Positions 5,155 through 24,502 of a stretch of DNA of 29,663 nucleotides are shown piece by piece. The DNA comes from Candidatus Woesearchaeota archaeon (GTDB lineage Archaea; Nanobdellota; Nanobdellia; SCGC-AAA011-G17; GW2011-AR17), in contig CAYHOW010000005.1 of NCBI GenBank assembly GCA_964358335.1, forward strand, positions 1 through 29,663, read 5' to 3'. Below the pieces are notes generated by a model. It was not told the DNA's origin and made no database searches. It saw only the letters and a program-made list of their open reading frames with translations. The position numbers and the translations under genes were made by a program. Position 1 is the first letter of the stretch. Every line of letters starts with the position of its first letter.

Positions 5155-5162
5155 TTTTTTTT
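5155..5162. terminator. T8 tract shared by convergent ndk (+) and wHTH regulator (-) genes
   Basis: tttttttt directly after the ndk TGA and next to the minus-strand stop at 5161. Confidence 0.4.
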
Positions 5163-5562
5163 ATATTTGCTTATCTATTTCTTCAGCTATATTTTTCATT
5201 GAAGTAAAGAATTCGTTGGCGTCTTTCTTCAGGAGATCTATGAGCTGGACAAGGTTATTCGTCCGGAGCATGTACTTGTTGCGTTTAGAGACGACGATGC
5301 CGGCGTCCATCAGGCGGTTAAGGTGATGCACCACAGTGCCTCTAGTGAGGTTAAGCTTGTAGGCTATCTCGTCGCTCGACAGCGGCTTGTCTATTTTGGA
5401 CGCCTTAAGGAGCTCGACGAAAATCCTGAAGCAGGACTTCTCCTTGTCCCTGAGGTTGAACAGCCCTAAGGAGTTGGAGAACCACTGTATCTCCTGGTTG
5501 ACGGTCTGCGTCCCGGCCTTGTCTATCTTGACAATGGTTATCCTCTTGAACGAATTTATCAT
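5161..5562 (-). CDS. small winged-HTH transcriptional regulator (ArsR/TrmB-like)
   Basis: LSSDEIAYKLNLTRGTVVHHLNRLMDAGIVVSKR is a canonical wHTH recognition helix–wing; start trimmed to Met at 5562 (MINSFKR…) because a TATA-like element TTTATA (5589-5596, minus strand) lies about 27 nt upstream. Confidence 0.55.
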   Translation of the reverse strand: MINSFKRITIVKIDKAGTQTVNQEIQWFSNSLGLFNLRDKEKSCFRIFVELLKASKIDKPLSSDEIAYKLNLTRGTVVHHLNRLMDAGIVVSKRNKYMLRTNNLVQLIDLLKKDANEFFTSMKNIAEEIDKQI

Positions 5563-5623
5563 TTCAATGATTAGAGTGCATAGGTTCGTATAAATAGTTT
5601 GTGATGGGAAAAATAAAAAAGAA

Positions 5624-6511
5624 TTATTTCTTCTGCTTTGCCGCAACGGCTTGAGCCGTGCCCTGGTCGATATCGGAGCTGTTTATCAGGAGCGTGGGGC
5701 TGATGCCCTTGTCCGTGAGGATGAACTTCGAGTTGTTCTTCAATGAGCTCTCGACGACCTCAAGCTGCTTAAGGAGCTGTGCGTTGCCCTTGAAGTACTT
5801 CTCTGCGGACTCGTTGATTATCTTTATCGCGCCTGCCTGCGCCTCGGCTTTTAACTTTATCGACTGCGCCTCGCCCTCGGCCTCCTTGATCTTTGCCCTT
5901 CTCGAGCCGTCAGCCTCTGTCTCCTTGGCTGTGGCGAAATCTATGGAGGCGGTCTTCTCGTTCTCGGCGATGACGACCTTGTTCATTGTGGCCTGGACGT
6001 CCTCGGGAGGATTGATCTCCTTCAGCTCGGCCCTGACAATCTCGATGCCCCAGTCAGCGGTCTCGGTGCTTAGCGTCTTCATGAGGTCCTTGTTTATCAT
6101 GTTCCTTTCGCCGTTCGCGTCAGAGAGCTTCATGGTGCCTATGATGTTCCTCAATGTCGTCCTTGCGAGGTTGACTATCTGGTTCTCGCAGTTGTAGACG
6201 TAGTACTGTGAGTTCTTGACGTTCTTCTCGTCTGCCCTTATCTTGAAATATATCTGGGCGTCGACTTTGGCGTTAAGCTTGTCGCTGGTGATTATCTCCT
6301 GGGACTCGACGTTGACCATCTTCTCCGTGATGTTGACGACAATCATCCTGTCCACTATTGGGATTATCCAGTTGAAGCCGTTGTTGGCGAACTTGTGGTA
6401 CTTGCCGAGCCTTTCTATGAGGCCCTTCTCTGTCGGCCTGATTATCCTTATGCCTGCGAAAAAAACCAGTGCAAATGCGCCTATAGCTGAATAGATATAG
6501 ATATTTGACAT
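5624..6511 (-). CDS. SPFH/band-7 family membrane protein (stomatin/prohibitin-like)
   Basis: N-terminal TM helix (IYIYSAIGAFALVFFAGI) then SPFH core (IIRPTEKGLIERLGKYHK…, QEIITSDKLNAKVDAQIYFKI, NIIGTMKLSDANGERNMI), C-terminal Ala/Glu/Lys coiled coil; start at Met 6511 (MSNIYIY). Confidence 0.8.
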   Translation of the reverse strand: MSNIYIYSAIGAFALVFFAGIRIIRPTEKGLIERLGKYHKFANNGFNWIIPIVDRMIVVNITEKMVNVESQEIITSDKLNAKVDAQIYFKIRADEKNVKNSQYYVYNCENQIVNLARTTLRNIIGTMKLSDANGERNMINKDLMKTLSTETADWGIEIVRAELKEINPPEDVQATMNKVVIAENEKTASIDFATAKETEADGSRRAKIKEAEGEAQSIKLKAEAQAGAIKIINESAEKYFKGNAQLLKQLEVVESSLKNNSKFILTDKGISPTLLINSSDIDQGTAQAVAAKQKK

Positions 6512-6730
6512 TTCGAGGATTAGAATCGGCGGTTTGTTTAAAAATGTTGCTAATCTGGGAGGCTTTGCACACAAACCCTGCCCTGCACATAAAGTCCATA
6601 TTTGATGGAATTGGCTGAAATCGCACTTGTCGACCTTAGATTGACAAGTTGCACATAAATGCATATAACCTTGTCAATGTTATCTTAGGATTTAAAAAAG
6701 AGCCAAGAAGAATTAGCCTAAAGTCAAATA

Positions 6731-8182
6731 CTACTTATAGAATTTTTTTGCTTCATCAAAAAGTTTAGTCAATTCATTTAAATCTAAATAAACCATCTTT
6801 TTTTGGTCTAACATTTCTAAACATTTGGGAGTAAAACCAGATTTCGAAACAAATAAATAATTGAAACTACCACTTTTATTTATTAATTTGGATTTTTCAT
6901 CTAATTTTTTTATATCTAATACATCCATTGGTTTATTTGTCCATTTAACTTCACAAAGAATAATTTGCCTTGTTTTTGAATTATTAGCTACAATTTCAAT
7001 CTCTTCAGTTACCCCTGCTAAATTTTTTCCCCACCACCAACTAATCTCATCAAAATTAATATGAAGTTCTTTTATATTTTTAGTATTATATAATATTAAT
7101 AATTCTCTTATAATTTCCTCAAATCTAAAACCTATAAAGCTATTCAAATCAGTCTCTATTTTCTTTTTTAATAAGTCCCTTCCTCCGATTTCAATTAAAG
7201 ATAGATTAGGATAAATAAATTTATACCAGAACTGAAAAAAATTATCAATAAATTTATATCTTGGTTTTATATTTCGTGTAGGAAAAAGAGGCTCTGTTTT
7301 TTTAATAAGATTTAAAAGTTCTATTAGGTTAGTGAAGTAGAAATCAATTGAACTTTGAGGAATTCCTGATTTTTCAATTATTTCTTCCCTAGTTCCATTA
7401 CTCTGTGCAATGGCATGTAGTATTGAATTATAGTTAGTTTCTTTCTTTAATTCCATTGTTATAAAATTTGTTGGTTCATCTATTAAAGGAGCAGATCTGC
7501 GTAAAACAAGTTTATTAATAATAGTCATTAAGTCTTTATTCGATTCATCTTTAACAAACCATAAGAAATGCGGTGTACCCCCAAATATAGAATAAAGTTC
7601 TACTTTCTTTGCTTCATCAAGATCTTCAAACATTTCTCTAAAATCAACATATCTAAATGGTTTAAATTCAATTTTTAAGGTCATACGCCCATATAAAGGC
7701 GCTGTTTTTTCCATAAATATATCATACATCATACTCATAGATGATCCAACCGCAAAAAACATTATATTTGTATATTTTAGTTTAGAATCCCAGAAATCTT
7801 GAAACATAGTCAAAAACTCAGGAGATTGTTCTTTTAATCTTGGAAATTCGTCCATTATAAAAATAAATTTTTCCTTAGATGCCTTTCTTTCTAAATATTG
7901 GAAGAAACTTGCCCATTCTACAAAAGTTTCTCTTTCCCCAGTTTGGTCAAAAATAGTATCTGATAATAAGGTCAGTAGTTCTTTTTTATTGGTTTTATTT
8001 ACAAAGTAATAAACTGCATTTTTTTTATCTTCTATAAATTTCTGAATAAATAAAGTTTTTCCGAGCCTTCTTCTTCCATATATGACGCAAAATTCACCCT
8101 TTTTAAGTTCCTTATATCTTCTATCTAAATCTTCTAATTCCTTTCTTCGGTCATAAAATTCCATTTTACCTAGTCTAACCAA
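6731..8182 (-). CDS. AAA+ ATPase of the archaeal Arch_ATPase/DUF234 family (483 aa)
   Basis: Walker A YGRRRLGKT, Walker B IFIMDEF, C-terminal DUF234-like region; coding region is strikingly AT-rich compared with neighbours. Confidence 0.75.
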   Translation of the reverse strand: MVRLGKMEFYDRRKELEDLDRRYKELKKGEFCVIYGRRRLGKTLFIQKFIEDKKNAVYYFVNKTNKKELLTLLSDTIFDQTGERETFVEWASFFQYLERKASKEKFIFIMDEFPRLKEQSPEFLTMFQDFWDSKLKYTNIMFFAVGSSMSMMYDIFMEKTAPLYGRMTLKIEFKPFRYVDFREMFEDLDEAKKVELYSIFGGTPHFLWFVKDESNKDLMTIINKLVLRRSAPLIDEPTNFITMELKKETNYNSILHAIAQSNGTREEIIEKSGIPQSSIDFYFTNLIELLNLIKKTEPLFPTRNIKPRYKFIDNFFQFWYKFIYPNLSLIEIGGRDLLKKKIETDLNSFIGFRFEEIIRELLILYNTKNIKELHINFDEISWWWGKNLAGVTEEIEIVANNSKTRQIILCEVKWTNKPMDVLDIKKLDEKSKLINKSGSFNYLFVSKSGFTPKCLEMLDQKKMVYLDLNELTKLFDEAKKFYK

Positions 8183-10951: not shown

Positions 10952-11575
10952 ATGATACCGACATTAATGAAATGCCACGAATTGCAAGATAGGTATAATA
11001 TGATGTCTACCTCGAAGATACATGCTGGAAAGATAAGGGACATCTCATTGGACTTAGTCAGCAGATTAAAGCATAAAGGATATAATTTAGACGAAGAAGT
11101 CATGGAAGCTTCCGCATTGCTGCACGACATAACAAAGGTCCATCAGATAATTTCCGAAGCTGTAGAAAGCAACGATGTGGGCGAGCTGAACAGGCATATT
11201 AATTTAGTCCCGAATTCATTCTCGGACATATATGCGCAGATGATGTGGATGAGGAGGCAGTTCGCATTGCCCGACAACGTCGAGCACGCCGAGTCAGGCT
11301 GCCATCTTCTCACTTATTTAGGGTACGGGGAGATAGGCGGCATAATCAGGCGGCACAACGACCCTATTGTGGAAATAAGCGAAAGAGCCATATTATGCTA
11401 TTCTGACAGGATAGTCTCGTTGGACATCGTGCCTCTCGAAGAGAGGTTCAGGTACATCTACAGGAAGTACGGCGACAAGAGCGAGCTCTATAATAGCTCG
11501 AAGGAATTGGAAAGGCTTTTATTGTCAACGGCAGGCATAACGTTCGAGGAGTTGGAGAGGATGCACCATGGCTAA
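10952..11575 (+). CDS. HD-domain phosphohydrolase-like protein, inserted between dnaK and dnaJ
   Basis: H…HD motif ([10 protein letters not shown]) followed by downstream His/Asp positions ([13 protein letters not shown]); overlaps dnaJ start by 8 nt so co-transcribed. Confidence 0.6.
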
Positions 11576-12674
11576 GGACTATTACAGGATCCTTGGCGTG
11601 GACAAGAATGCGTCCAAGGAAGATATCAAGAAGGCCTACAAGATTCTGGCAAAGAAGCACCATCCCGACCTTAACAAGGAATCGGGCTCTGCCGAGAAGT
11701 TCAAGGAGATAAACGAGGCTTATTCTGCGCTGAGCGATGACACTAAGAGGTCCAACTATGACAGGTTCGGGGATTCGGGAGAGCAATATTCGGGTTTCCA
11801 GGGCGGTAATTTCAATGACGAGATGTTCAATGACATGTTCGACAACTTCTTCGAAGGAAGCATATTCGGCGGCCAGAAGAGGGGCAGAAGAAAGGGCGCA
11901 GACCTGAAATACGAGATGGAAATCGCTTTCGAGGAGGCTGCATTCGGCACCAAGAAGAAGATAGACATAACCAAGTTAGGCAAGTGCGACAAGTGCGGCG
12001 GCACAGGCGCAGAAGACGGGAAAGTAACGGCTTGCGACGCATGCAGCGGCGCAGGACACATAAGGCAGCAGTTCAGGACGCCGTTCGGCATGATACAGCA
12101 GTCTGTAGTATGCGGAAGGTGCAGGGGAAGCGGCAAGATGGCGAAGAGCGCATGCAAGGAATGCGGTGGCAAGGGCAGGAAGAAAGTGTCAAGGTCAATA
12201 ACAATATCCATACCTGCGGGCGTTGACAATGGCTCGACGCTGAGGGTGTCAGGCGAAGGCGAGGCCGGCGAGCAGGGAGGCAGCGAGGGCGACTTGTATG
12301 TAGAGGTTTACGTCAAGCCCCATCCCATATTCGAGAGGGAAGGCAACGACATAACATTGGAGCTTCCGATAAGCTTCGCGCAGGCGGCGCTGGGCGACGA
12401 GGTCAAGGTCCCGACGCTGGAAGGCGACGTCACGATGAAAGTTCCCGCAGGCACGCAGTCGCATTCTCTGTTCAGATTGAAAGCTAAGGGCATACCATAT
12501 TTAGACGGCTACGGCAGGGGCGACGAGATAGTCAGGCTGATAGTCAAGACTCCCAAGTCATTGTCGCAGAAGCAAAAGAAATTATTGCACGAGTTCGCTG
12601 AAGATAATAAAGAAAGCCTAAAAATAGAGAAAGGTTTTTTCGACAAGGTTAGGGACGCTCTAATCTCTGACTAA
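11568..12674 (+). CDS. dnaJ: co-chaperone DnaJ (J domain, G/F region, CxxCxGxG zinc finger, C-terminal domains)
   Basis: [31 protein letters not shown] (HPD tripeptide); four CxxCxGxG repeats ([32 protein letters not shown]). Confidence 0.92.
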
Positions 12675-13485
12675 TACTCTCATAGAACCTTATTGCTTCT
12701 TCTAAAGCAACTATGTGCGAGCCAGTAGCGCACTTATTGTTCATGTACGAGCTTGGCGCGACAAGGACCAATGCAGGTATGTTCCGTTCCTGGCACGCAA
12801 AAGCGAACTGGTTTCTCGTCCTGAACACCAAGTTTCCTTCCTCAACGAAACCCTGGAACACTACACCAGGCGAAGTCACGATGTGCCCGTCTCCCAAGTC
12901 TCCATCCTTAGGGTTAAGCAGGTGTACATTTTCCTGCATAAGCTTGTTAGCTAGCGAACCGCCAACGTCTTTAGCCTCCGGGAACAAGAATTTAAGCCTA
13001 TTCGTGCCATCATCTTCAGATTGGAGCGTGGTCAGCTGATAGAACATGAAATATCCGTTCAATGAAGGAGCCTCTTCAGCGAAAGCCTCAGTCAGAAGCA
13101 AAGCCAAGTTATACTTTTTGGAATCAAGCAAATTCAATAAGGAACTGACTTGGACAGGCTTGTCAGTTTCAAGGTAAGCAGAATCTAAGTATTTCTTGTT
13201 GCCTAAAGTGCATCCGATAGACGTCCTTGTGCCCGGATACCCTTCGGTGTCAAGCACAGGCACCATATCGACAGAAGTATGTGCTGGCTGTTTGAGCCTA
13301 AGCTTGTCAGCCACATAAAGCATCGCGTTAGTCCCAGAGACCTTGTCGCCGTGCTCAGCGCCGATGACTAATATCTTATACATTTCTTCCTTGGCAGGGA
13401 ACTGCAAGAATGGCAAAACGCCGTAACTGAAACTGTTGCCATACTCCTTCTGGAGTTTAGAAACCAAATCATTCATGATAAACAC
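12649..13485 (-). CDS. putative zinc hydrolase of the M14 / AstE-AspA (succinylglutamate desuccinylase–aspartoacylase) fold, tentative; last gene of the prkA operon
   Basis: [16 protein letters not shown] resembles the N-terminal G-x-H-G-x-E Zn-binding block of AstE/AspA/M14 proteins (E/H order atypical); later His at …GSHIVALEE; 38-bp spacing from clpP-like gene; 3' end overlaps dnaJ 3' end convergently. Confidence 0.4.
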
Positions 13486-13523: not shown

Positions 13524-14294
13524 TTACTTGCTCAGTTTCCCTTTGCCTTCGATAATTCCGTCGATTATGCCAAGCTTAACAGCTTGTTCGGCTGTCATGA
13601 ACCTGTCTTTCTGGAGCCACTTCTTGAACCAGACTTTTAGCTCAGCATCATCCATCTTTTTAGGTTTCATGTCAGTGACATGGTCCATATCTGTCTCTCC
13701 TCCGAACTGGTGGAAGTATCCATCTTTATCTCTATTGATATGCTTGAGGTATATGTCAATGAACCTGCTGAAAAGATCATTGATGTAATCGTTCTGCACC
13801 AGCATATCGCTAAGCCTTCCGCCAGTACCCCCACTGGCCTCATGCAGCATTATTGTGGCATTCGGCAAAGCATATCTTTTTCCTTTTGCGCCAGCGGCCA
13901 AGAACATGCTGGCCATGCTTCCGGCCATGCCTGTGACCACGGTGGAAACATCAGACTTTATGTGCTGCATGGTATCATAGACCACAAGCCCCTCTGTAAC
14001 CATTCCGCCGGGGCTGTTGATATACATGACTATGTCCCTATTGTCTTCCTTGCCCATCGAATCTAAAGCGAGCATTTGTTCCATGGCGGACTCGGAAGTC
14101 CCGGTGTCTACCATGCCCGTGAACATAATTATCCTCTGCCTGAACAGCAGCGACCTAGGCGAATATCTGGCAGAGCTGTCATACATGTACACGCCACCTT
14201 CTTGGGAGCACGAACGCGCATGGCCGCCCTCTAATTTATCTGCCAAGTCTTTTGGTCCCCAGTAGGGACCGGATTGAAAAATTCTTACAGCCAT
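13524..14294 (-). CDS. ClpP-family serine protease (Clp proteolytic subunit homolog) with N-terminal extension and C-terminal insertion
   Basis: Collinear with ClpP: RIIMFTG…DIVMYINSPGGMVTEGLVVYDTMQHIKSDVSTVVTGMAGSMASMFLAAGAKGKRYALPNATIMLHEASGG…DRFMTAEQAVKLGIID; Ser (GSMAS), His (LHEASGG) and Asp (DRFMTA) of the triad conserved; GGAGGA SD 5 nt upstream. Confidence 0.8.
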   Translation of the reverse strand: MAVRIFQSGPYWGPKDLADKLEGGHARSCSQEGGVYMYDSSARYSPRSLLFRQRIIMFTGMVDTGTSESAMEQMLALDSMGKEDNRDIVMYINSPGGMVTEGLVVYDTMQHIKSDVSTVVTGMAGSMASMFLAAGAKGKRYALPNATIMLHEASGGTGGRLSDMLVQNDYINDLFSRFIDIYLKHINRDKDGYFHQFGGETDMDHVTDMKPKKMDDAELKVWFKKWLQKDRFMTAEQAVKLGIIDGIIEGKGKLSK

Positions 14295-14312: not shown

Positions 14313-16715
14313 CTAAATGTCCACGTTACTAAAGTCCCACATCAAGTCGAAGAACACATACTCCAATGCTGACTTTGCGCATTTGTCGCAGTACAGCGCC
14401 TTCTTCTTGAGGTTAGTTATTATCCTATCTATCTCCTTTCTTGCAGGCGGATTAATTGACTGGTCCTTCTTGGTGCCTATCCATTGTACGCTCCTCCGCA
14501 ACTCTTCAGGAGTCACTTCCATCTTCTTGATTGCTCCCTTAAGCAATGAGTCATATATGAACTGATAATAGTCATCAAAAAGTTCAGTCACGTCAAGCTG
14601 AGGGATATTATCATATCCTTCTTCTTCTGCCTTAGTCCGAGCTTCCCTGTAGTCCACAGCCAGTTCCAATACAACGTCGCGCCTATGGCTTTCCCTCTGC
14701 TCAAGCATGGAAAACACGCCAATTAAGTCTTCAAGCCAGTTCATCTTCTTCTCGCTTGGCGGCTCATATTCCTTTGTTATCGGGTTGTATACAGTACTAT
14801 TCTCAGCCCAAGCCTGCACGTGAGTTACATACTCGATAATGTTCTTGTCGAGCTCTTCCTTTGGCATGCCTACTATTGCCCACTGCACGTCCTGCTGCAC
14901 TGCAGCATCATACTCATTTATTGCGCTTTCAAGCAAATGTCGTATGTTAAGGTACTTTTTCTCTTCCTTCTTGCTGTAAGTTAAAGCGCCAGGTATCCCG
15001 GACTCAACTATCTTTTCCAATTTTGCCTTGAAATCATTTATGCCGAGGCATACGCACTTCTTGGTCCTGCACTCGATGTCTTCCTTATATCCTATTACGT
15101 CAGTGATAAGGTCCATTATCCTTCTTGGAGATATTCCCGCCATGCCTTCTTTCTCATAGACAACGCCATCTTTTGTGATCTTGACCCCCTGAAGTGGATT
15201 ATGCTCTTCCCTGAGCAACTTTTTTATCATCGGCGCAACAATAAGCTTCTTCTCATAAGTTGCAAGTCCCAAAGGCATCTTGTCGTCGTATATCATTGCC
15301 TTCTGTATTGGAGAGAGATCCTTGATGATATCAAGGGTGTCTTTGTCAGCGCCATTTTCCTTATAGTATTCAGGGCTTGGCTTGTATAGCCTTGTCAGCA
15401 CAGCGAATAACGCAACAAAATCCCTTATGTGTGGCATGATATGCTTATGGTCGCCATGCTCAGGATCCTCGCTGTAACCGGCTTCCTTGAATTTTGATAG
15501 GTATATCTGCTTCTCGTCGGAAATTTTTATTAGGTAAGGGATGTCAAAGGAGCGAGTCCTGTCAAGGAGCGCCTTGTTGATGGCGTCCATCCTTACGGAA
15601 CTAAACCCTTCAATATTTGTGGTGCCTATTATAAGTGTGTCAACTGTTGCCTGCACGCCGTTGAAGTCCTGAATATGCTCCTGGACGGCGGAAAGAAGGT
15701 TGTTGTGCTTAGAGTCTCTCATGAACATATCGCTGAAATGCAGTATGCCCCTGTTGGCATCAACCCATTTGCCTTCAAACTGGTGAAGTGATATGCCGGG
15801 GAAAAGTTCAGCCAGATTCTGGTATGATGCGCCTTCCCTGACAAGCAACTTTGCATTGCCTTCGACGTTCTGGACGGGCTGGACGGTTGCTGCGCCAATC
15901 TGCTCAATCTCAGACACTAGCAGCCTAAGAACTTGGATGTGGTTAAGTACCTTGCCAATGTCACCGTCGTACTTGTCTAGGAGCCTATCATAGATGGTCT
16001 GGCAGTTCTTGCACAATTCATTCTCCAGAAGAATCTTAGGTATGACCACATCCTTGTGGCCGTCATTGACAACTTCCTCAAGATACTTTCTCCTTTTGTC
16101 CTTGGGTATAAGCATTAGCGGATGGTCGTTCATCTGGCAAGGCACCCTGATGAAAAGGTCCTCATCTGCTAGGTGCGCAAGCGACTTAGTATTATTAGAA
16201 TGGTCATGCGGAAGGTTAAATCCGATATTCTCCATGAAACTGTCCTCTACAAAGACCCAATCGAAAGTGTATATGCCCCCGTTACTGGTCCTTGAATAAT
16301 GCTGAAGACCGTTTATCAGAAGTCTTATTATAGAAGTCTTTGCCGTGCCCTGCGGGCCATGGAGAATGATTATCCTCTCATCGCCACCTTTGTTTGCGGT
16401 AGTTTCGATATAATTTACTATTGCTGACACCTGCCTGTCAAGCCCGAAGACAGAATGCTTGCCTAACTCGGAACTTATCTCCCTATCGAAAGGATCATCG
16501 AAGAGCTCGTACCTGATTATCTTCTCTCCGCAGTCAATAATATCGCGTGTGCCAAAATAGTTAATCATGTCTGATATCATCTGGAAAGCGGTCCTTGTGT
16601 AATTGTAAGGATTCATCTCAAGCTTGTGCAGGAATTCGTCGAACGACGCGACATACTTCCTTGCGGCATACTCTTCCCGAACTTCATTCTTTATTACGCT
16701 GAACTTGGTTGCCAT
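14313..16715 (-). CDS. prkA: PrkA-family serine protein kinase (AAA ATPase + PrkA C-terminal domain), paralog 1
   Basis: Walker A ILHGPQGTAKTS, PrkA-typical blocks (CQMNDHPLMLIPKDKRR, FSDMFMRDSK, LIIGTTNIEGF, ALLDRTR); start set to Met 16715 (MATKF…; AGGAGA SD upstream) because the longer ORF (to 16775) would overlap spoVR by 44 nt. Confidence 0.85.
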   Translation of the reverse strand: MATKFSVIKNEVREEYAARKYVASFDEFLHKLEMNPYNYTRTAFQMISDMINYFGTRDIIDCGEKIIRYELFDDPFDREISSELGKHSVFGLDRQVSAIVNYIETTANKGGDERIIILHGPQGTAKTSIIRLLINGLQHYSRTSNGGIYTFDWVFVEDSFMENIGFNLPHDHSNNTKSLAHLADEDLFIRVPCQMNDHPLMLIPKDKRRKYLEEVVNDGHKDVVIPKILLENELCKNCQTIYDRLLDKYDGDIGKVLNHIQVLRLLVSEIEQIGAATVQPVQNVEGNAKLLVREGASYQNLAELFPGISLHQFEGKWVDANRGILHFSDMFMRDSKHNNLLSAVQEHIQDFNGVQATVDTLIIGTTNIEGFSSVRMDAINKALLDRTRSFDIPYLIKISDEKQIYLSKFKEAGYSEDPEHGDHKHIMPHIRDFVALFAVLTRLYKPSPEYYKENGADKDTLDIIKDLSPIQKAMIYDDKMPLGLATYEKKLIVAPMIKKLLREEHNPLQGVKITKDGVVYEKEGMAGISPRRIMDLITDVIGYKEDIECRTKKCVCLGINDFKAKLEKIVESGIPGALTYSKKEEKKYLNIRHLLESAINEYDAAVQQDVQWAIVGMPKEELDKNIIEYVTHVQAWAENSTVYNPITKEYEPPSEKKMNWLEDLIGVFSMLEQRESHRRDVVLELAVDYREARTKAEEEGYDNIPQLDVTELFDDYYQFIYDSLLKGAIKKMEVTPEELRRSVQWIGTKKDQSINPPARKEIDRIITNLKKKALYCDKCAKSALEYVFFDLMWDFSNVDI

Positions 16716-16731
16716 TTTGTTTTTGGTCTCC

Positions 16732-18321
16732 TTATCTCCTTTTAAGGTCCTTGGTCTTAATGTCCTTTCCGTCATAAGTTATAATGACTGGCTTGCCACC
16801 TTCCCTTGTGGCTATATGGACAGTCCTGCCCCACACCTTGAATATGTTCTTCAGGGTCCTGTCCCTCTTGTCTGTCTCGAGAATAGTCTCATCATAAGAC
16901 TTATGGAAAAGCAACAATTCTCTGGAGTTTCCGAAGTTACCATTAATGACCTCAATCACCGGCTCGCCACAGTTAACTAGGGGCGCCATTATAGAGTCCC
17001 TTATCTTTTCAGGGTCCCTGTCATTGATTTTGTACCAGTTGTCCCTTTTGTCCAAGGAAAAATTATAGAACTGCTTCCTTTCAATCAAGTCAGGAGTGAA
17101 GAAAGTTCTTAGGAACTCATAGTCGTCCATGGTGTCCCTCACTTCGAACATCTTCTTCATGCCTTCTCCAGCCTTAGTGTCCCAATTCATTCTCTTCTCA
17201 GCATTGGTCTCACGTTCGAAATTGATTCCATGCCTTCCAGTGTCCCAGCATTCCTTGATATCCTGCCAAATCATGTAGCCGATATAGTAAGGGTTGACCG
17301 AGCCAGGAGCAGTAGCCAATACACTAGCATTTACCTTGCAGTACTGTATGACATCATCCCTAGCGAAACCTAGGTCTTCCATGAACTTCCTGTGCCAGTA
17401 GACAGCCCATCCTTCGTTCATTATCTTGGTCTTCCTTTGCGGAAGGAAATAATAAAACTCGTCCCTGATTATTGAAAGTATATCCCTCTGCCACGGAGTC
17501 ATGCCTTCTCCGTGCTGTATCAGGAACCTCAGGACGTCCCTCTGCGGTATTTTAGGGAACCTATCATTTGCCTTCTCATTGTCAGCGTCAATCTTCTTCA
17601 TCTCATCTATGAAATCCTGGGGATTGATGAAAGGGTCCATGTAAGGACTGCTTATCCTGAGCCTGTACTCGAGATTTTTTTGTTCTTCTTCCACTGTGCT
17701 GTCGCAACATCCGTGGTCGCCACTGCACTTATGGTCTTCGCTACAGCGGCCGCACCCCTTTTTATTTTGTATTACGGGGCTGCCGTCTTCCAGAGGCCTG
17801 AGGTCCAGATATGAAGCATCATAATCAATGAGGTTTTCGAGAGATATAGCAATCTCGATGAACTTCTCGACCTCTTCATACCCGAACTTCTGCTGGTAGA
17901 ACCTTATCATCTCGGCATGGTCTGACATGACATTATGCATGTTCCTGTTAGTCCTTGAGAATAGGTAATTGTTCTTGAAGAAATCCGCATGGCCGTAGAC
18001 ATGCGAGATAACCATCTTCTGTATGACCTGCGGGCTGGTCTCCAAAAGATAAGCTATGCTGGGATTGGTATTTATCACAAGCTCGTATATGTGCGAGAGC
18101 CCATAGCCCTGCTGCTTCTCATAATATTTCTGCTGCATGCCGAAGTACCAGTGCGGGAACCTCTTAGGCATTCCGACGTACGACGTTACTTCCATAAGCG
18201 TATCGAAGTCAACCATGACGAAATGGACAGGAAAATAATCCAGCTTGAACTCATTCCTTGCTATCATATCCATCTCTTTGCTTGCTTCTTTCAATTCTTC
18301 AGTAAGTGGCCCTTGTTTCAT
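16732..18321 (-). CDS. spoVR: SpoVR/YcgB-family protein
   Basis: SpoVR hallmarks: HVYGHADFFKNN, NEGWAVYWH, long conserved C-terminal region; contains a Cys/His-rich insert (GCGRCSEDHKCSGDHGCCDS). Confidence 0.85.
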   Translation of the reverse strand: MKQGPLTEELKEASKEMDMIARNEFKLDYFPVHFVMVDFDTLMEVTSYVGMPKRFPHWYFGMQQKYYEKQQGYGLSHIYELVINTNPSIAYLLETSPQVIQKMVISHVYGHADFFKNNYLFSRTNRNMHNVMSDHAEMIRFYQQKFGYEEVEKFIEIAISLENLIDYDASYLDLRPLEDGSPVIQNKKGCGRCSEDHKCSGDHGCCDSTVEEEQKNLEYRLRISSPYMDPFINPQDFIDEMKKIDADNEKANDRFPKIPQRDVLRFLIQHGEGMTPWQRDILSIIRDEFYYFLPQRKTKIMNEGWAVYWHRKFMEDLGFARDDVIQYCKVNASVLATAPGSVNPYYIGYMIWQDIKECWDTGRHGINFERETNAEKRMNWDTKAGEGMKKMFEVRDTMDDYEFLRTFFTPDLIERKQFYNFSLDKRDNWYKINDRDPEKIRDSIMAPLVNCGEPVIEVINGNFGNSRELLLFHKSYDETILETDKRDRTLKNIFKVWGRTVHIATREGGKPVIITYDGKDIKTKDLKRR

Positions 18322-19499
18322 TTTCCAGTCCCCAAGAATATTTTTAATGCAGCTAATATATCATCTTCGCCAGTTATCCTCGCTGTCATCAGCTTGTCTT
18401 TCTGATTTTTTTTCTCAGCATACTCCTTGATTTCTTTCAGATACACGCCCTCGGTATCAGTCCCGCCGTATACGCGGCCGTAATAGTCGGTGTAAGGCAG
18501 GTCAATCTGGCCGTAGCAGAAAAGGTTTGCCTTAGGCATTATCAAGTCAAGCATCTTGAACTCATCCTTGTTATTTCCCCAGTTATCTCCGTCCGACCAC
18601 TGGAAGCAGTAAATGTTCCACTCTTCAGGATTGAAGAACTGGTTGATGACAAGGTCGCAGAGTTCGTACGCTGAAGCGATTCTCGTCCCGCCAGAAGTCG
18701 ACGTCCTATAGAACTCATAGTAGCTTACCTGCTTAGCAGAGTAGTCATGTATGATATAGATGGACTCTATGCCCTTGTACTGAGACCTAAGGAAAGTATC
18801 AATCCAGAACGACGTCAGCCTGGCTATGCTCTTGTGCCTTTCGCTCATAGAGCCTGAAACATCCATCATATAAATTAATACTGCATCTGACTCGGGCTTT
18901 GTGGTAGTCTTCCACGACCGATACCTCATGTCCTCTTTCCTTATTGTTATTATAGGATCCTCCGGGTCATATTCGCCAGAGGCGATTGTCCTGAACAAGG
19001 CCTGCATGAAGGTAGCCTCGATGCGCAACAAAGCATCAGGGCCTACTGTTCTCGAGCCAGAATACCTGTCGAACTCAGTATATATCCTCTTCTTCCTGCC
19101 TTTATCCTCAACGTTAGGCAGCCCCAACTCTTCCTTCATTATACTTGCAAGAACTTCGAGATTGACCTCAACCTCTATAGAATGCTCACCTTCGCCCTCG
19201 CCGGCTTTCTTACCGTCGCCTTCGCCCTCGCCCTGCTGCCCAGGGAAAAGCTTATCACCTACATTTCCCGGTCCCCTGCCTACTCCACCTTGACCTTCAC
19301 CATCACCTTGGCCATCTTCAGAATTGTCAGGCGCTTTCTTGAACCGGGGAATCTCGACATGTGGCAAAGGTATAGAAATAGTCCCGTCCCTCTTTGGCTT
19401 CAAAATATCGTAGTTCTTGATGATATTCTTGAGGTCTTTCCTTACGCTACCCTTGATGATATCCTCGAATCTTTTTTTGTTCGAGTCTCCGTAAGCCAT
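18318..19499 (-). CDS. yeaH: YeaH/YhbH-family protein (DUF444, vWA-like) with low-complexity Gly/Glu/Asp-rich N-terminal segment
   Basis: DUF444 core (VLIYMMDVSGSMSERHK… = vWA MIDAS-like DxSxS; FCYGQIDL…); N-terminal GQGDGEGQGG…GEGEGDGKKAGEGEGE acidic low-complexity region typical of YeaH/YhbH. Confidence 0.8.
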   Translation of the reverse strand: MAYGDSNKKRFEDIIKGSVRKDLKNIIKNYDILKPKRDGTISIPLPHVEIPRFKKAPDNSEDGQGDGEGQGGVGRGPGNVGDKLFPGQQGEGEGDGKKAGEGEGEHSIEVEVNLEVLASIMKEELGLPNVEDKGRKKRIYTEFDRYSGSRTVGPDALLRIEATFMQALFRTIASGEYDPEDPIITIRKEDMRYRSWKTTTKPESDAVLIYMMDVSGSMSERHKSIARLTSFWIDTFLRSQYKGIESIYIIHDYSAKQVSYYEFYRTSTSGGTRIASAYELCDLVINQFFNPEEWNIYCFQWSDGDNWGNNKDEFKMLDLIMPKANLFCYGQIDLPYTDYYGRVYGGTDTEGVYLKEIKEYAEKKNQKDKLMTARITGEDDILAALKIFLGTGK

Positions 19500-19504
19500 T
19501 TCAA

Positions 19505-21610
19505 TTACCTGTTACGGGCATCTCCTCTTGCAAAGATGCTTGAAGCGGCCTCAAGGACTCTTCCAGCACAGACATCGCAATACCCGAACTCCTTCTTAAG
19601 ATTAGCCTTGATAAGGTCTATTTTCTCCATTTCTTCCTTGGTCCGGACTTCCTTGAACAGGGCGCTGAAATTAATCAAGTCTTTCTTTTCCTCGAAAAGC
19701 TTCAGCACAAGCCCGCGGTAAAGCGTCTCGTTAGTGTCATAGTTGAGCTGCTCCTTGCCCAAGGCGCACCTGGATATGAACGATACAATGCCGGACCTGA
19801 AATTGTCTTTCATAGCTTCGGTAATCTCAATTTTCTCCTCGATGCTTCTCATGAGCTTCTCGTCAGGATCGATCATCCTATGCGGCTGGAACGGATCCCG
19901 AAGCTTCTTCTTCTCGATGTAAGCTTGGAGGTTGTCAAGATACTTTGTGAACAGCGACCGGAGCTCTTCAGGGTTGTTGACTACTGCTCTGTTGACCTCA
20001 TCCTTGATTATCTCAAGGTACTGACCCTGTGACAACTTCAACAAAGCCTTATACTCCTTAATAGTCTCTTCGCTGTTTAAAATGGCGGACTTGTCAAGCA
20101 GCATCTCTATCTGGGCATAGACCTGGAATGGGTTCAAGCAGGACTCATCACGGTTTTTTACTGAGGCATCTCCTATTGCGTCAATGATGAACCTTGTTGA
20201 AATCCCATCCAATCCTTCCCTTTTTGCTTCTCTGATTAGTTTCCTCACATAGTTATCATCTTTATCGGGGAACTTTCTGCCATTGTAAAGCCACATCTTC
20301 TGGACCTTGCCAAGGCCGTCGTCGTTCGCCTCTTTTGGAGCCTCAAGCCTCGTAAGTTCGGCAAAGATTGATGCAAGCTGGAAAGTGTGGGGTGCGATGT
20401 GCTTCCTGACCTTTCCCGGCGTGAAAATCTTACCATAAATTTTCTCTTCTTGATCAAGCACTAAGTTGTAAGGGACATCGTACCTTGATGTCCTGTCCTT
20501 GAAAGCCTTCATAAGCTCGTCTTCCAGCAGCTTCCTGAACTCTTCCTCGTTCGTGTGCCCAAGAATGACCAAGTCGACATCAGTAAGCGCGAACTTCTTC
20601 GGCTTGATCTTCTGTTCCTGTGAAGCGACTAATAAATCGTAAAGGAATGCCCTCTCAAGCTTCAATATTTCTATGAACTCGATGATGCCCCTATTTGCTA
20701 CACAGAGCTCACCATTGAAGTTGAATGCTCTCGGATCCGAGTCGGAACCTAAGATAGCAATCCTTCTGAAATCCATACTGCCTGTAAGGTCAGCGGCATC
20801 CTGGTTTTTCTCATCTTTGGGCTGGAAAGTTCCGATGCCCCTCCTGTCGCCTTCGGAAATGAAGAACCTGAAAACCTTGATATGGTTCATGACCTTGTCC
20901 CAGTCTCCGCCATAGTGTGCCATAAGCATGTCATAGTTGAACCTGCAGTGCGGGCAGAGCTGCCCAATAATATCAATAGGATACTTGACTTTCTCATTGT
21001 TCCTGTTTGCGTCGTTTATGCTCCTTACGAGGTCAGGCCTCCTTGAGACATCCACCAGCTTCAATGGATCTTCATGCAGTTCGCACTCATGGTCGTACAG
21101 CTTGACAACTCCTACGCCTGGGGCATCTACAGTGAACCCAGAATTCTTGTCATCGTAATTGCCAAGGCCTAACCACCTGAATGTGTAGATGGGGTCTACG
21201 TGCGAATTGTTCTCTAAGCCTCTCTTAAGTAACGTTGCGATTGTGCTCTTTGCGCTAGCCACGGGCCCATGCAACAGCAATACTCTTTTCTCCTTGCCTA
21301 GCTTATGTGCTGCCGCATCGAAATGGTTGACAATATTTTCGAGGTGCTCATCAATGCCGAACAACGAATTCTCGGAGGGCGTTCCGTCGGGCTGGAGGTC
21401 CATGAAGAAATGGTAAGCTTTTACCTCATCCCCGAACCTCTTGTACTTCTGCGAACCTTTCTCAATAATCATATCGAATACCCTTTGGTTGGCGTTCCTT
21501 ACTGGCCTTGCATTTTCGTGCAGCAAGTCTAAGTACTCATGCATAGTTATCTCGCGCAAACCTGCATACTTTTCGATTTTACCGCCGAATTTAGAACTCG
21601 TTTCTGACAT
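19505..21610 (-). CDS. prkA: PrkA-family serine protein kinase, paralog 2 (shorter form)
   Basis: Walker A LLHGPVASAKST, PrkA blocks (CPHCRFNYDMLMAHYGGDW, ILGHTNEEEF); ATG at 21610 preceded by AGAGGT SD with ~10-nt spacing (the track ORF start at 21622 is a GTG). Confidence 0.8.
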   Translation of the reverse strand: MSETSSKFGGKIEKYAGLREITMHEYLDLLHENARPVRNANQRVFDMIIEKGSQKYKRFGDEVKAYHFFMDLQPDGTPSENSLFGIDEHLENIVNHFDAAAHKLGKEKRVLLLHGPVASAKSTIATLLKRGLENNSHVDPIYTFRWLGLGNYDDKNSGFTVDAPGVGVVKLYDHECELHEDPLKLVDVSRRPDLVRSINDANRNNEKVKYPIDIIGQLCPHCRFNYDMLMAHYGGDWDKVMNHIKVFRFFISEGDRRGIGTFQPKDEKNQDAADLTGSMDFRRIAILGSDSDPRAFNFNGELCVANRGIIEFIEILKLERAFLYDLLVASQEQKIKPKKFALTDVDLVILGHTNEEEFRKLLEDELMKAFKDRTSRYDVPYNLVLDQEEKIYGKIFTPGKVRKHIAPHTFQLASIFAELTRLEAPKEANDDGLGKVQKMWLYNGRKFPDKDDNYVRKLIREAKREGLDGISTRFIIDAIGDASVKNRDESCLNPFQVYAQIEMLLDKSAILNSEETIKEYKALLKLSQGQYLEIIKDEVNRAVVNNPEELRSLFTKYLDNLQAYIEKKKLRDPFQPHRMIDPDEKLMRSIEEKIEITEAMKDNFRSGIVSFISRCALGKEQLNYDTNETLYRGLVLKLFEEKKDLINFSALFKEVRTKEEMEKIDLIKANLKKEFGYCDVCAGRVLEAASSIFARGDARNR

Positions 21611-21776
21611 TTGTATTTTCACCTCTTAATTATCGGTTTTGTCTAATTTTTTAATATAATTTTAATATTGCTCTGAAAGAGCGTATTTCTGGTATCATAA
21701 AGAAGAGAATGTGCATTAAAAAGCTTGTGACAAAATAGAGTAACATTTATAAAATCTGACATATTTAATGGAATAA

Positions 21777-24364: not shown

Positions 24365-24404
24365 AAAGCTTAATATATTCTATATATATGATTTGTTTCT
24401 TATT

Positions 24405-24478
24405 GGGCCCATAGCATAACCCGGATATTGCAGTCGCCTTCGGAGCGATTGGCGCAGGTTCAAATCCTGCTGGGCTCA
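24405..24478 (+). tRNA. tRNA-Arg (anticodon UCG), 74 nt, no encoded CCA
   Basis: Manual fold: acceptor GGGCCCA/TGGGCTC (one G-U), T-arm GCAGG-TTCAAAT-CCTGC, anticodon stem GTCGC/GCGAT with loop CTTCGGA (U33, anticodon TCG, G37), D-loop with GG; antisense ORF 24276..24479 shows the classic GFEPAP tRNA-antisense artefact. Confidence 0.75.
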
Positions 24479-24502
24479 TCCATATCGATTAGCAGGGGCA
24501 AA

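What the first reader, a model, noticed from the sequence alone, without database searches (positions are those of the whole stretch)
13524..14294. ClpP homolog with intact Ser-His-Asp triad in an archaeal genome, carrying a ~35-aa N-terminal extension and a ~40-aa insertion before the catalytic Asp
Archaea typically rely on the proteasome and Lon and generally lack ClpP. This protein aligns collinearly with ClpP: the catalytic Ser lies in GSMAS, the His in LHEASGG and the Asp in DRFMTA. It has an unusual N-terminus (MAVRIFQSGPYWGPKDLADKLEGGHARSCSQEGG…) and an insertion (KDGYFHQFGGETDMDHVTDMKPKKMDDAELKVWFKKWLQ). No ClpX/ClpA partner is visible in the window. It may act without an unfoldase, or with the PrkA AAA domains.
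Basis: partly seen in the sequence, partly recalled or inferred. Interest (0 to 1): 0.6.

Follow-up and report, generated by a model that had tools for sequence, protein, structure and literature searches.

The report
ClpP protease embedded in archaeal PrkA operon
A small group of tiny (DPANN) archaea carries a genuine but remodelled copy of the bacterial ClpP protease, always wired into a conserved stress-response operon next to a PrkA-type ATPase, which suggests that ClpP here works with a partner other than the usual ClpX/ClpA machines.

Summary
The ORF is real (window 13524-14294, minus strand, 256 aa) and is a true ClpP-family serine peptidase. Evidence: Pfam CLP_protease 174 bits, triad Ser126/His151/Asp230, a confident AlphaFold model, and only ClpPs among the top 50 PDB matches. 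SppA and phage prohead protease are rejected. It scores below every NCBIfam ClpP cutoff, so it is not a canonical ClpP. The contig is archaeal (NCBI 'Nanoarchaeota archaeon' MAG). The decisive result is context. The gene is the fifth of six tightly packed genes: PrkA1, DUF444, SpoVR, PrkA2, ClpP and X, where X has an M14-like fold without conserved zinc ligands. At least eight diverged lineages (ClpP 36-66% identical) keep PrkA2-ClpP-X adjacent, often with overlapping genes and in different flanks. Related Nanoarchaeia have the same operon without ClpP (L009, L010) or without ClpP and X (L016). All 16 family members share an insertion of about 30 aa at the aE-aF junction. They also share a remodelled ClpX/ClpA docking pocket (Phe82 to His in 15 of 16) and altered axial-loop residues. 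The N-terminal extension occurs only in a subclade. Best reading: a captured bacterial-type ClpP serves as the peptidase of the PrkA AAA+ module. Direct docking to PrkA2 is plausible but unproven.

The parts
13524..14294 (-). ClpP-family serine peptidase, 256 aa (PrkA-linked variant)
   Evidence: ORF. Pfam CLP_protease 174.3 bits. AF2 model pLDDT 82.6. Top 50 PDB fold hits are all ClpP. GGAGG Shine-Dalgarno 7 nt before the ATG, 18 bp after the PrkA2 stop.
13917..13919 (-). Codon of catalytic Ser126 (AGC) in GSMAS
   Evidence: Aligned with E. coli Ser97; conserved in 16 of 16 family members.
13842..13844 (-). Codon of catalytic His151 (CAT) in LHEASGG
   Evidence: Aligned with E. coli His122; 16 of 16.
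13605..13607 (-). Codon of catalytic Asp230 (GAC) in KDRFMTA
   Evidence: Aligned with E. coli Asp171; 15 of 16, Asn in the second tandem paralog of L015.
13650..13739 (-). Family-defining insertion of about 30 aa (residues 186-215, INRDKDGYFHQFGGETDMDHVTDMKPKKMD) at the aE-aF junction
   Evidence: Absent from canonical ClpPs and present in all 16 PrkA-linked ClpPs, with signature D-x-x-G...[FWY]GG...P..M. Left unaligned by HMMER against PDB ClpPs. Predicted as ordered, pLDDT 92-97.
13617..13649 (-). Rewritten aF helix (residues 216-226, DAELKVWFKKW) with two conserved Trp
   Evidence: Aligns with E. coli LEQIERDT. W222 and W226 are invariant in the eight close variants; W226 is kept in all 16 and W222 in 15 of 16 (shifted in the long-insert member P0168). 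Helix 216-226 in the model.
14166..14294 (-). N-terminal 43 residues: subclade-specific extension with a conserved Trp12-Gly13 (Gly replaced by Trp in P0010), followed by a remodelled axial-loop region
   Evidence: Alignments. pLDDT below 50 for residues 1-35. Canonical E8, E14, R15, D18, Y20 and R22 are replaced.
12649..13476 (-). Protein X, 275 aa: orphan family with a zinc-peptidase (M14-like) a/b fold but no conserved HxxE...H ligands
14313..16715 (-). PrkA2: divergent PrkA-family AAA+ protein, 800 aa from Met21 (the ORF extends to 16775)
   Evidence: Pfam AAA_PrkA plus PrkA C-terminal domain. Walker A GPQGTAKTS at 16332-16358 and NIGFNLPH at 16206-16229. 26-29% identical to PrkA1. Immediately upstream of ClpP in all loci; its C-terminus is seen in L012 and L015.
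16732..18321 (-). SpoVR/YcgB-family protein, 529 aa
   Evidence: Pfam SpoVR 381 bits.
18318..19499 (-). DUF444/YeaH-family protein, 393 aa
   Evidence: Pfam DUF444 242 bits.
19505..21622 (-). PrkA1: canonical PrkA/YeaG-type AAA+ protein, 705 aa; first gene of the operon
   Evidence: Pfam AAA_PrkA 268 bits and PrkA 194 bits. Intergenic gaps along the operon are 5, -4, -44 (or +16), 18 and 38 bp.

Best explanation
The gene encodes an active ClpP-fold serine peptidase that is not a housekeeping ClpXP/ClpAP subunit. It belongs to a small, old clade of ClpPs found only in some Nanoarchaeia/Woesearchaeota-type DPANN archaea. The ultimate origin is probably bacterial. In that lineage the gene became fixed inside the PrkA1-DUF444(YeaH)-SpoVR(YcgB)-PrkA2 stress operon, between PrkA2 and the orphan protein X. 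Shown: ClpP family and fold, intact triad, co-directional tight packing with PrkA2 and X, conservation of that trio across deep divergence and different flanks, a family-wide ordered insertion at the aE-aF junction, and family-wide remodelling of the ClpX/ClpA docking pocket and the axial loops. Inferred: it assembles into a ClpP-like barrel and provides the proteolytic activity of the PrkA AAA+ module. PrkA proteins are AAA+ ATPases with a predicted pore loop and no protease site of their own. Substrates would be delivered by PrkA2 and/or PrkA1, with the new surface (the insertion plus the Trp-rich aF helix) and the altered pocket serving as the interface for PrkA2 or X. The stated confidence is for 'ClpP-family peptidase functionally dedicated to the PrkA module'. 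Direct PrkA2-to-ClpP threading is given separately under the novel case.
For: Family and fold: Pfam 174 bits; PDB sequence hits all ClpP; AF2 pLDDT 82.6; Foldseek top 50 all ClpP with TMt 0.83-0.93. Triad kept in 15 of 16 members. Operon: gaps 5, -4, -44, 18 and 38 bp, with a Shine-Dalgarno before ClpP. Linkage: PrkA2-ClpP-X in the window, L001, L002-4, L005/6, L008, L012, L014 and L015. Start/stop overlaps occur in L001, L012 and L014. Flanks differ in L005, L014 and L015. X homologs occur only on ClpP-variant contigs in the word-indexed search of a database of 5.8 billion proteins. ClpP-less (L009, L010) and ClpP-and-X-less (L016) versions of the same operon show that ClpP was added to a pre-existing module. 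Family-wide changes: insertion in 16 of 16, Phe82 to His in 15 of 16, Phe49, Tyr60 and Met92 changed, axial-loop residues replaced. The clade appears in an NJ tree on core columns. Only about 8 representative clusters among 40,286 ClpP hits carry the signature. Literature: PrkA is an AAA+ ATPase, not a kinase (PMC9512850). B. anthracis PrkA has a predicted hexamer and pore loop, oligomerises with ATP, and lacks a protease site (PMC13001217). YeaG, YeaH and YcgB act together (10.1101/072470). Haloarchaea have the 4-gene core (PMC3102087).
Against: No physical interaction is shown. The [IVL]GF tripeptide in PrkA2 also occurs in ClpP-less PrkA2s (L009, L010, L016) and partly in PrkA1, so it is not a ClpP-specific docking loop. 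The same operon works without ClpP in related archaea, in haloarchaea and in bacteria, so ClpP is an accessory rather than a core component. Bootstrap support for the clade on core columns is only 45/100. Co-transcription could reflect co-regulation only. The rest of the genome was not available, so a Clp ATPase elsewhere cannot be excluded. Barrel assembly and activity are untested.
Confidence: 0.7

Rival explanations
1. Stand-alone, ATPase-independent peptidase. The variant ClpP barrel, perhaps with an open or differently gated pore because of its rewritten N-terminus, degrades peptides or unfolded proteins on its own. It sits in the PrkA operon only so that it is expressed under the same stress conditions. 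X (peptidase-like fold) might further process the products.
For: ClpP is dispensable for the operon in relatives (L009, L010, L016). The canonical docking pocket and axial-loop residues are altered. No ClpP-specific docking motif was found in PrkA2. ClpP is always paired with X, which has a peptidase-type fold.
Against: The position between PrkA2 and X is invariant, with overlapping or abutting reading frames across 36-66% sequence divergence and changing flanks. That is tighter than co-regulation alone usually produces. The conserved, ordered surface insertion suggests a specific protein partner. X lacks conserved catalytic zinc ligands.
Confidence: 0.2
2. Ordinary ClpP acquired by horizontal transfer that works with a canonical Clp/Hsp100 ATPase (ClpX, ClpA or ClpC) encoded elsewhere in the genome. 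The operon position would be incidental.
For: NCBI annotates it as 'ATP-dependent Clp protease proteolytic subunit'. Triad and fold are canonical. Tyr62, Leu23, Leu48 and Leu114 of the pocket are kept. The rest of the genome was not examined.
Against: Below every NCBIfam ClpP equivalog or subfamily cutoff (169.5 vs 249; 143.3 vs 308.6). Phe82 to His and other pocket changes, plus loss of the E8/E14/R15/R22 loop residues that contact ClpX/ClpA, are family-wide. No Clp ATPase appears in the window or in any of the fetched flanks, about 10 kb each in 11 loci. Linkage to PrkA2 is invariant.
Confidence: 0.07
3. Not a cellular ClpP at all: a prophage head-maturation (ClpP-like) protease, an SppA-type signal-peptide peptidase, or bacterial contamination of the MAG.
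For: PHROG head-maturation protease families and NCBIfam Clp_rel_HeadMat give secondary hits. ClpP-like proteases are common in phages.
Against: ClpP models score about twice as high (169.5 vs 79.9 bits; SppA 22.9 bits). Cellular ClpP structures are 32-37% identical against 25% or less for viral models. There are no capsid, portal or terminase genes nearby, and the flanking genes are archaeal housekeeping genes with conserved synteny in several MAGs (aIF5B upstream; DnaJ-HD-DnaK downstream). GC content is uniform across the cluster. No PADLOC hits.
Confidence: 0.02

Closest known systems
Bacterial/organellar ClpP (MEROPS S14, Pfam PF00574), e.g. E. coli ClpP (PDB 1TYF, 3MT6) and S. aureus ClpP
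   Same: Same fold (TM 0.83-0.93 normalised to target). Same Ser-His-Asp triad in the same order and spacing. The handle region is retained, as are the YINSPGG and KGKRYALP motifs. 32-37% identity to solved ClpPs, and 43-47% on core columns to the closest bacterial sequences.
   Different: An ordered insertion of about 30 aa at the aE-aF junction and a Trp-rich replacement of aF. Docking-pocket substitutions (Phe82 to His, Phe49 to Ala, Tyr60 to Val, Met92 to Thr). Axial-loop residues E8, E14, R15, D18, Y20 and R22 replaced. Longer N-terminus. Encoded in an archaeon, next to a PrkA AAA+ gene rather than clpX. Below the NCBIfam ClpP cutoffs.
PrkA/YeaG - YeaH(DUF444) - YcgB(SpoVR) stress module of bacteria, and the two-PrkA four-gene cluster of haloarchaea
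   Same: The first four genes of the window operon are this module in the haloarchaeal form (PrkA1, DUF444, SpoVR, PrkA2) (PMC3102087; 10.1101/072470).
   Different: Neither the described bacterial nor the haloarchaeal clusters include a ClpP or the X protein. Here a subclade of Nanoarchaeia has appended X, and then ClpP between PrkA2 and X.
Two-component AAA+ proteases (ClpXP, ClpAP, ClpCP, HslUV, PAN/Cdc48-20S proteasome)
   Same: A self-compartmentalising peptidase gene lies immediately next to, and is probably translationally coupled with, an AAA+ ATPase gene. The ATPase family has a predicted hexamer and an aromatic pore loop (PMC13001217).
   Different: The ATPase is PrkA-type, with a large insertion in the AAA+ core and a kinase-like C-terminal domain. 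It is not Clp/Hsp100 and is not known to dock on any peptidase. No ClpP-specific IGF-type loop or HbYX tail was identified. The interaction is hypothetical.
ClpP1/ClpP2 and ClpP/ClpR heteromeric systems (mycobacteria, cyanobacteria, plastids)
   Same: One related locus (L015) carries two tandem paralogs, one of which has lost the catalytic Asp. This is reminiscent of mixed active/inactive rings.
   Different: The window has a single copy, and the paralogs belong to the PrkA-linked clade, not to known ClpP1/P2/R groups.
M14 metallocarboxypeptidases and AstE/ASPA-type amidohydrolases (for the neighbour X)
   Different: The zinc-binding His and Glu and the second His are not conserved across the family. 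No Pfam match. The model confidence is low (pLDDT 56).

Membership tests
ClpP (Pfam PF00574 / MEROPS S14) | Significant match to the CLP_protease profile above the gathering score | tested here: met
   174.3 bits against a cutoff of 20.2, E = 3e-51.
ClpP (Pfam PF00574 / MEROPS S14) | Ser-His-Asp catalytic triad at the canonical positions | tested here: met
   Ser126/His151/Asp230 align with E. coli Ser97/His122/Asp171; conserved in 15 of 16 clade members.
ClpP (Pfam PF00574 / MEROPS S14) | ClpP fold (head domain plus handle strand and helix) | tested here: met
   AF2 pLDDT 82.6. Top 50 Foldseek PDB hits are all ClpP, TMt 0.83-0.93.
Canonical ClpP equivalog (NCBIfam TIGR00493 / NF001368) | Score above the curated whole-protein cutoff | tested here: not met
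   143.3 vs 308.6 (TIGR00493); 169.5 vs 249 (NF001368); every ClpP model is below its cutoff.
Canonical ClpP equivalog (partner of ClpX/ClpA/ClpC) | Conserved hydrophobic docking pocket for IGF/LGF loops (E. coli Leu48, Phe49, Tyr60, Tyr62, Phe82, Ile90, Met92, Phe112, Leu114, Leu189) | tested here: not met
   The window has L, A, V, Y, H, V, T, Y, L, I at these positions. Phe82 to His occurs in 15 of 16 members; Phe49, Tyr60 and Met92 are changed family-wide; Tyr62, Leu48 and Leu114 are kept. Pocket residue identities are from established ClpP structural literature (own knowledge).
Canonical ClpP equivalog (partner of ClpX/ClpA/ClpC) | Conserved N-terminal axial-loop residues (E8, R12, E14, R15, D18, Y20, R22) | tested here: not met
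   Only the R12 position is mostly retained; the others are replaced. The alignment is uncertain in this region.
Canonical ClpP equivalog (partner of ClpX/ClpA/ClpC) | A Clp/Hsp100 ATPase encoded in the same genome | not testable with these tools
   None in the window or in the fetched flanks of 11 related loci. The rest of the MAG could not be searched.
ClpP (any) | Assembly into heptameric rings / a tetradecameric barrel, and peptidase activity | not testable with these tools
   Only a monomer model is available. The handle region is retained in length.
Phage ClpP-related head-maturation protease (NCBIfam NF045542; PHROG 94) | Best profile match, score above cutoff, and a phage structural-gene context | tested here: not met
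   79.9 bits against a cutoff of 120. PHROG 94 gives 102 bits, lower than the ClpP models. Neighbours are PrkA, SpoVR and DnaJ, not phage genes. Viral models are 25% identical or less.
SppA (MEROPS S49) | Match to the SppA profile and a Ser-Lys dyad architecture | tested here: not met
   TIGR00706 gives 22.9 bits against a cutoff of 155. The His and Asp of a triad are present instead.
PrkA-YeaH-YcgB (PrkA/DUF444/SpoVR) gene module | Co-directional cluster of PrkA, DUF444 and SpoVR genes | tested here: met
   Pfam hits of 268, 242 and 381 bits for the genes at 19505-21622, 18318-19499 and 16732-18321, plus a second PrkA at 14313-16715. Gaps of 5 bp or less, or overlaps.
M14 zinc carboxypeptidase (for neighbour X) | HxxE...H zinc ligands and a catalytic Glu | tested here: not met

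The most novel reading that the evidence does not exclude
PrkA2 (alone or in mixed rings with PrkA1) is a substrate-translocating AAA+ unfoldase that docks on this remodelled ClpP through a new interface: the His82 pocket, the rewritten axial loops, and/or the aE-aF insertion. X would act as adaptor or cap. That would be the first ClpP-based ATP-dependent protease native to Archaea and the first ClpP partnered with a non-Clp/Hsp100 ATPase. By extension it would indicate that the enigmatic PrkA/YeaG family acts as protein unfoldases or remodellers, which would help resolve the dispute over whether PrkA is itself a protease.
Probability: 0.25. Interest if true: 0.85.

Novelty: new variant of a known kind. 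Interest (0 to 1): 0.6.

Why it matters
Archaeal proteolysis is usually described as lacking true ClpP (own knowledge). ClpP biology is built around Clp/Hsp100 partners that dock through IGF-type loops into a conserved hydrophobic pocket. Here a deep, rare archaeal ClpP clade has changed exactly that pocket and the axial loops, gained a conserved ordered surface element, and become locked next to a PrkA-type AAA+ gene.

The PrkA/YeaG-YeaH-YcgB module is widespread in bacteria and archaea and matters for starvation survival and sporulation. Its mechanism is unknown, and whether PrkA has intrinsic protease activity is disputed (PMC9512850 versus PMC13001217).

Natural operons with and without ClpP and X, at the same chromosomal site, give a directly testable system: co-express PrkA2, ClpP and X and ask whether they form an ATP-dependent protease. 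A positive result would define a new class of ClpP partner and assign a biochemical activity to the PrkA family. A negative result would still leave a structurally distinctive stand-alone ClpP.

Tried and rejected
1. IGF-loop hypothesis. PrkA2 carries NIGFNLPH about 45 aa after Walker A, conserved in orthologs. However, [IVL]GF is also present in ClpP-less PrkA2s (L009 KVGFNS, L010 TVGFDL, L016 SIGFNS), and PrkA1 has SG[FL] at the aligned position. It is therefore rejected as ClpP-specific. A finer pattern, GFx[LI]P, occurs in 5 of 5 ClpP-linked against 0 of 3 ClpP-less PrkA2s. That comparison is phylogenetically confounded, so it is kept only as a lead.

2. C-terminal HbYX-like or other tail motif in PrkA2. 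The C-termini are variable and show no pattern.

3. SppA or prohead protease. Rejected by profile scores and fold.

4. Anti-phage defence system. No PADLOC hits for any of the six proteins.

5. X as an active M14 carboxypeptidase. The fold is similar but the ligands are not conserved.

6. Bacterial donor. The NJ tree and identities give no clear sister group. The closest canonical ClpPs are 43-47% identical and include Parcubacteria/Patescibacteria and Firmicutes sequences.

7. More family members. Both JGI metagenome scans (X profile, then the ClpP insertion pattern) found nothing. The genome-contig scan with the strict pattern W[LF]x[KER]WL[EQ]KD found only one species, identical to L001. 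That pattern would miss the more divergent members.

8. Promoter/terminator scan around ClpP: counts no higher than in shuffled sequence, and the tool does not model archaeal promoters.

9. AFDB fold search: the library was unavailable.

Full report
**1. Observation**

The ORF listing and translate confirm a 256-aa ATG-to-stop ORF at window 13524-14294, on the minus strand. The plus-strand translation is full of stops.

Pfam CLP_protease matches at E = 3e-51 (174.3 bits) in two stretches that flank an unmatched segment. NCBIfam ClpP models are the best hits, but all fall below their curated cutoffs (169.5 vs 249 for NF001368; 143.3 vs 308.6 for TIGR00493). The ClpP-related head-maturation protease model scores 79.9 bits (cutoff 120) and SppA scores 22.9 bits (cutoff 155). 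PHROG head-maturation families score at most 102 bits.

An AlphaFold2 model built on a 66-sequence alignment has mean pLDDT 82.6. Its 50 best Foldseek matches in the PDB are all genuine ClpPs (TM 0.83-0.93 normalised to target, 32-37% identity). Viral models are 25% identical or less. The protein is therefore a real ClpP-family member, not SppA and not a prohead protease, yet it is not a canonical equivalog.

**2. Organism**

The window encodes FtsZ, an Spt5-type NGN+KOW protein, aIF5B, an archaeal ATPase_2/DUF234 protein, NDK and GrpE-DnaK-HD-DnaJ. The identical protein is NCBI MEK6816531.1, 'MAG: Nanoarchaeota archaeon', on a contig of exactly 29,663 bp, so the window is a whole MAG contig. 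Relatives are labelled Woesearchaeota, Nanoarchaeia or 'archaeon'. Their loci carry ribosomal L7Ae/S28e/L24e, RadA, PolB and Hef.

GC content is even across the cluster. The flanking synteny recurs in several MAGs: aIF5B upstream of PrkA1, and convergent DnaJ-HD-DnaK downstream. Contamination or chimerism is therefore unlikely.

**3. Anatomy of the protein**

Aligned with E. coli ClpP and three other canonical ClpPs, Ser126, His151 and Asp230 correspond to mature E. coli Ser97, His122 and Asp171.

The net insertion is about 29-30 residues (~186-215, INRDKDGYFHQFGGETDMDHVTDMKPKKMD). It lies between the end of the long handle helix aE and helix aF. The following residues, ELKVWFKKWLQ, occupy the place of canonical aF (E. 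coli LEQIERDT) but are rewritten with two conserved Trp. AlphaFold predicts residues 186-226 with pLDDT 92-97 as an ordered, mostly non-helical excursion followed by helix 216-226. Residues 1-35 are below pLDDT 50.

Unrelated ClpPs carry different inserts at the same junction: eukaryote-like P0206 and P0266 with low-complexity inserts, and P0251. This fits a solvent-exposed site. The exact location on the outside of the barrel is my inference from published ClpP structures and was not computed here.

The N-terminus is about 13 residues longer than the E. coli precursor and about 26 residues longer than typical 195-aa ClpPs.

**4. A distinct, rare, old clade**

The word-indexed search returned seven relatives of 248-260 aa (43-65% identity). 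After them came a cliff to thousands of bacterial ClpPs at about 40% identity.

An exhaustive HMMER search of 1.84 billion representatives with the clade profile gave 40,286 ClpP hits. Only about eight representative clusters matched in one stretch through the insertion and carried its signature, D-x-x-G...[FWY]GG...P..M...W..[KE]W...DR[YFW]. A scan of 185,579 species-representative genomes with the strict insertion pattern found one species. Two JGI metagenome scans found none.

Across 16 members:
- The triad is kept in 15. The exception, P0186, is the second of two tandem paralogs.
- The insertion is present in all 16.
- The N-terminal extension is absent from L008, P0163 and P0166, so it is a subclade feature.
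- Pocket residues that bind the IGF/LGF loops of ClpX/ClpA/ClpC are systematically changed: Phe82 to His in 15 of 16, Phe49 to A/S/V/M/H, Tyr60 variable, Met92 mostly Thr. Tyr62, Leu23, Leu48 and Leu114 are retained.
- Axial-loop residues E8, E14, R15, D18, Y20 and R22 are replaced.

On 193 core columns that exclude the insertion, an NJ tree recovers the clade with bootstrap support of 45/100. Within-clade identity is 36-66%, as deep as the diversity among bacterial ClpPs. The nearest canonical sequences (43-47%) include Parcubacteria/Patescibacteria and Firmicutes sequences, so no donor can be named.

**5. Genomic context, the main result**

On the minus strand the window has six co-directional genes:
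- PrkA1 (19505-21622)
- DUF444/YeaH (18318-19499)
- SpoVR/YcgB (16732-18321)
- PrkA2, a second, divergent PrkA (14313-16715/16775; 26-29% identical to PrkA1)
- ClpP (13524-14294)
- X, an orphan protein (12649-13476)

The gaps are 5, -4, -44 (or +16 from Met21), 18 and 38 bp, and a GGAGG precedes the ClpP ATG.

The same six-gene order is found in L001 (ClpP 52% identical), L002, L008 (a 234-aa ClpP) and L014 (a 242-aa ClpP, entirely different flanks). Contig-truncated loci L005/L006, L012 and L015 still show the PrkA2 C-terminus, then ClpP, then X. L015 has two tandem ClpPs. Reading frames overlap or abut in L001, L012 and L014.

X has no Pfam match. In the word-indexed search it has only seven detectable homologs, all on contigs that carry the variant ClpP.

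Related Nanoarchaeia show the operon in simpler states. L009 and L010 have PrkA1-DUF444-SpoVR-PrkA2 followed directly by X, with no ClpP. L016 has only the four core genes, followed by the same convergent DnaJ-HD-DnaK as in the window. It is a natural empty site.

The four-gene core with two PrkA genes is the arrangement already described for haloarchaea (PMC3102087). The PrkA/YeaG-YeaH-YcgB trio behaves as one functional unit in bacteria (10.1101/072470). ClpP, always together with X, is thus an accessory added to a pre-existing module. In every sampled case it lies between PrkA2 and X.

**6. Protein X**

Across ten orthologs the would-be zinc ligands are not conserved. The His of 'EHGD' is L, K or F in some orthologs, and the His of 'GDGH' is Y, A or N. 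One Glu, one Asp and one Cys are invariant. X therefore has a peptidase-type fold with a non-canonical or inactive site. Its role (adaptor, cap or peptide-processing enzyme) is open.

**7. Mechanism**

Shown:
- A ClpP-fold peptidase with an intact triad.
- Operonic and evolutionary coupling to PrkA2 and X.
- Loss of the sequence features that define the ClpX/ClpA interface.
- Gain of a conserved, ordered new surface.

From the literature:
- B. subtilis PrkA binds and hydrolyses ATP through its Walker A motif, is not a kinase, and showed ATP-dependent casein hydrolysis (PMC9512850).
- B. anthracis PrkA is classed as a classic-clade AAA+ protein with a predicted hexamer and an aromatic pore loop. 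It oligomerises with ATP, but when pure it has negligible protease activity and no protease active site (PMC13001217).

Inference: PrkA-family proteins look like AAA+ remodellers or translocases without a peptidase. In this DPANN subclade a captured ClpP supplies one. I put 0.7 on 'ClpP-family peptidase functionally dedicated to the PrkA module' and about 0.25 on direct PrkA2-to-ClpP substrate threading.

The one direct test I could run did not support docking. The [IVL]G[FY] tripeptide in PrkA2 does not co-vary with the presence of ClpP. A finer GFx[LI]P pattern does co-vary (5 of 5 against 0 of 3), but that comparison is confounded by phylogeny. The operon also functions without ClpP in relatives.

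Rivals:
- A stand-alone peptidase that is merely co-regulated with the operon (0.2).
- An ordinary ClpP served by a Clp ATPase encoded elsewhere (0.07). This could not be excluded because only this contig is available.
- Phage, SppA or contamination (0.02).

**8. Comparison and novelty**

As a protein it is a member of Pfam CLP_protease/S14. It fails the tests for a canonical ClpP equivalog: NCBIfam cutoffs, docking pocket and axial loops.

Automatic annotation already labels it 'ATP-dependent Clp protease proteolytic subunit'. Six literature searches, three of them aimed at this point, found no description of a true ClpP clade in archaea or of a ClpP linked to PrkA (checked in PMC8204110). 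I rate it a new variant of a known kind.

Interest is 0.6. That score reflects a robust, surprising linkage that makes the function of the PrkA module experimentally approachable, set against the fact that the mechanistic core is still inference.

Noticed in passing
window 6731-8182 (-); GC profile 7001-8000: The archaeal ATPase_2/DUF234 gene lies in a sharp low-GC trough (GC 0.275 against about 0.46 in the rest of the contig). This may be a recently acquired or mobile segment.
   Followed up: no
window 10952-11575 (+): An HD-domain protein gene is inserted between dnaK and dnaJ. The same GrpE-DnaK-HD-DnaJ order recurs in L002/L003, L012 and L016, so it is a conserved feature of this lineage's chaperone operon.
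   Followed up: partly
window 16715-16775 (-): The first ATG of the PrkA2 ORF (16775) would overlap SpoVR by 44 nt and add 20 residues that orthologs lack. The likely true start is Met21 at 16715, giving 800 aa.
   Followed up: yes
L015 284-1075 and 1053-1781: Two tandem PrkA-linked ClpP paralogs. The second (P0186) has Asn in place of the catalytic Asp and Leu in place of the family-specific His82, which suggests a mixed active/inactive ring like ClpP1P2 or ClpP/R.
   Followed up: partly
L016 3162-10307 and L009/L010: Natural variants of the operon. L016 has the four core genes followed directly by DnaJ (no ClpP, no X). L009 and L010 have X but no ClpP. These are useful comparators for the order of gene gain and for experiments.
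   Followed up: yes
P0206, P0266, P0251: Unrelated ClpPs carry inserts at the same aE-aF junction: two eukaryote-like sequences with low-complexity inserts and one other. This loop appears to be a general hot spot that tolerates insertions.
   Followed up: no
window 16206-16229 (-) and orthologs: In PrkA2 the motif [IVL]G[FY]x[LI]P occurs in all five ClpP-linked orthologs. The three ClpP-less orthologs have GFNSK, GFDLG and GFNSV instead. The correlation is weak and confounded by phylogeny.
   Followed up: partly
window 5161-6664 (-), 25265-26310 (+), 28354-28824 (+), 24404-24482 (+): Other genes: an SPFH/Band7 protein with a downstream winged-helix HTH protein; a PIN-domain protein preceded by a 206-aa unknown (possible toxin-antitoxin pair); a VKOR-family protein; and tRNA-Arg(TCG), which overlaps a spurious 153-aa ORF.
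   Followed up: no
L016 1-1024: A Cdc48/VAT-type double-AAA ATPase lies about 2 kb upstream of the PrkA operon in L016. It is the only other unfoldase-type gene seen in any fetched flank, and no Clp/Hsp100 gene was seen anywhere.
   Followed up: no
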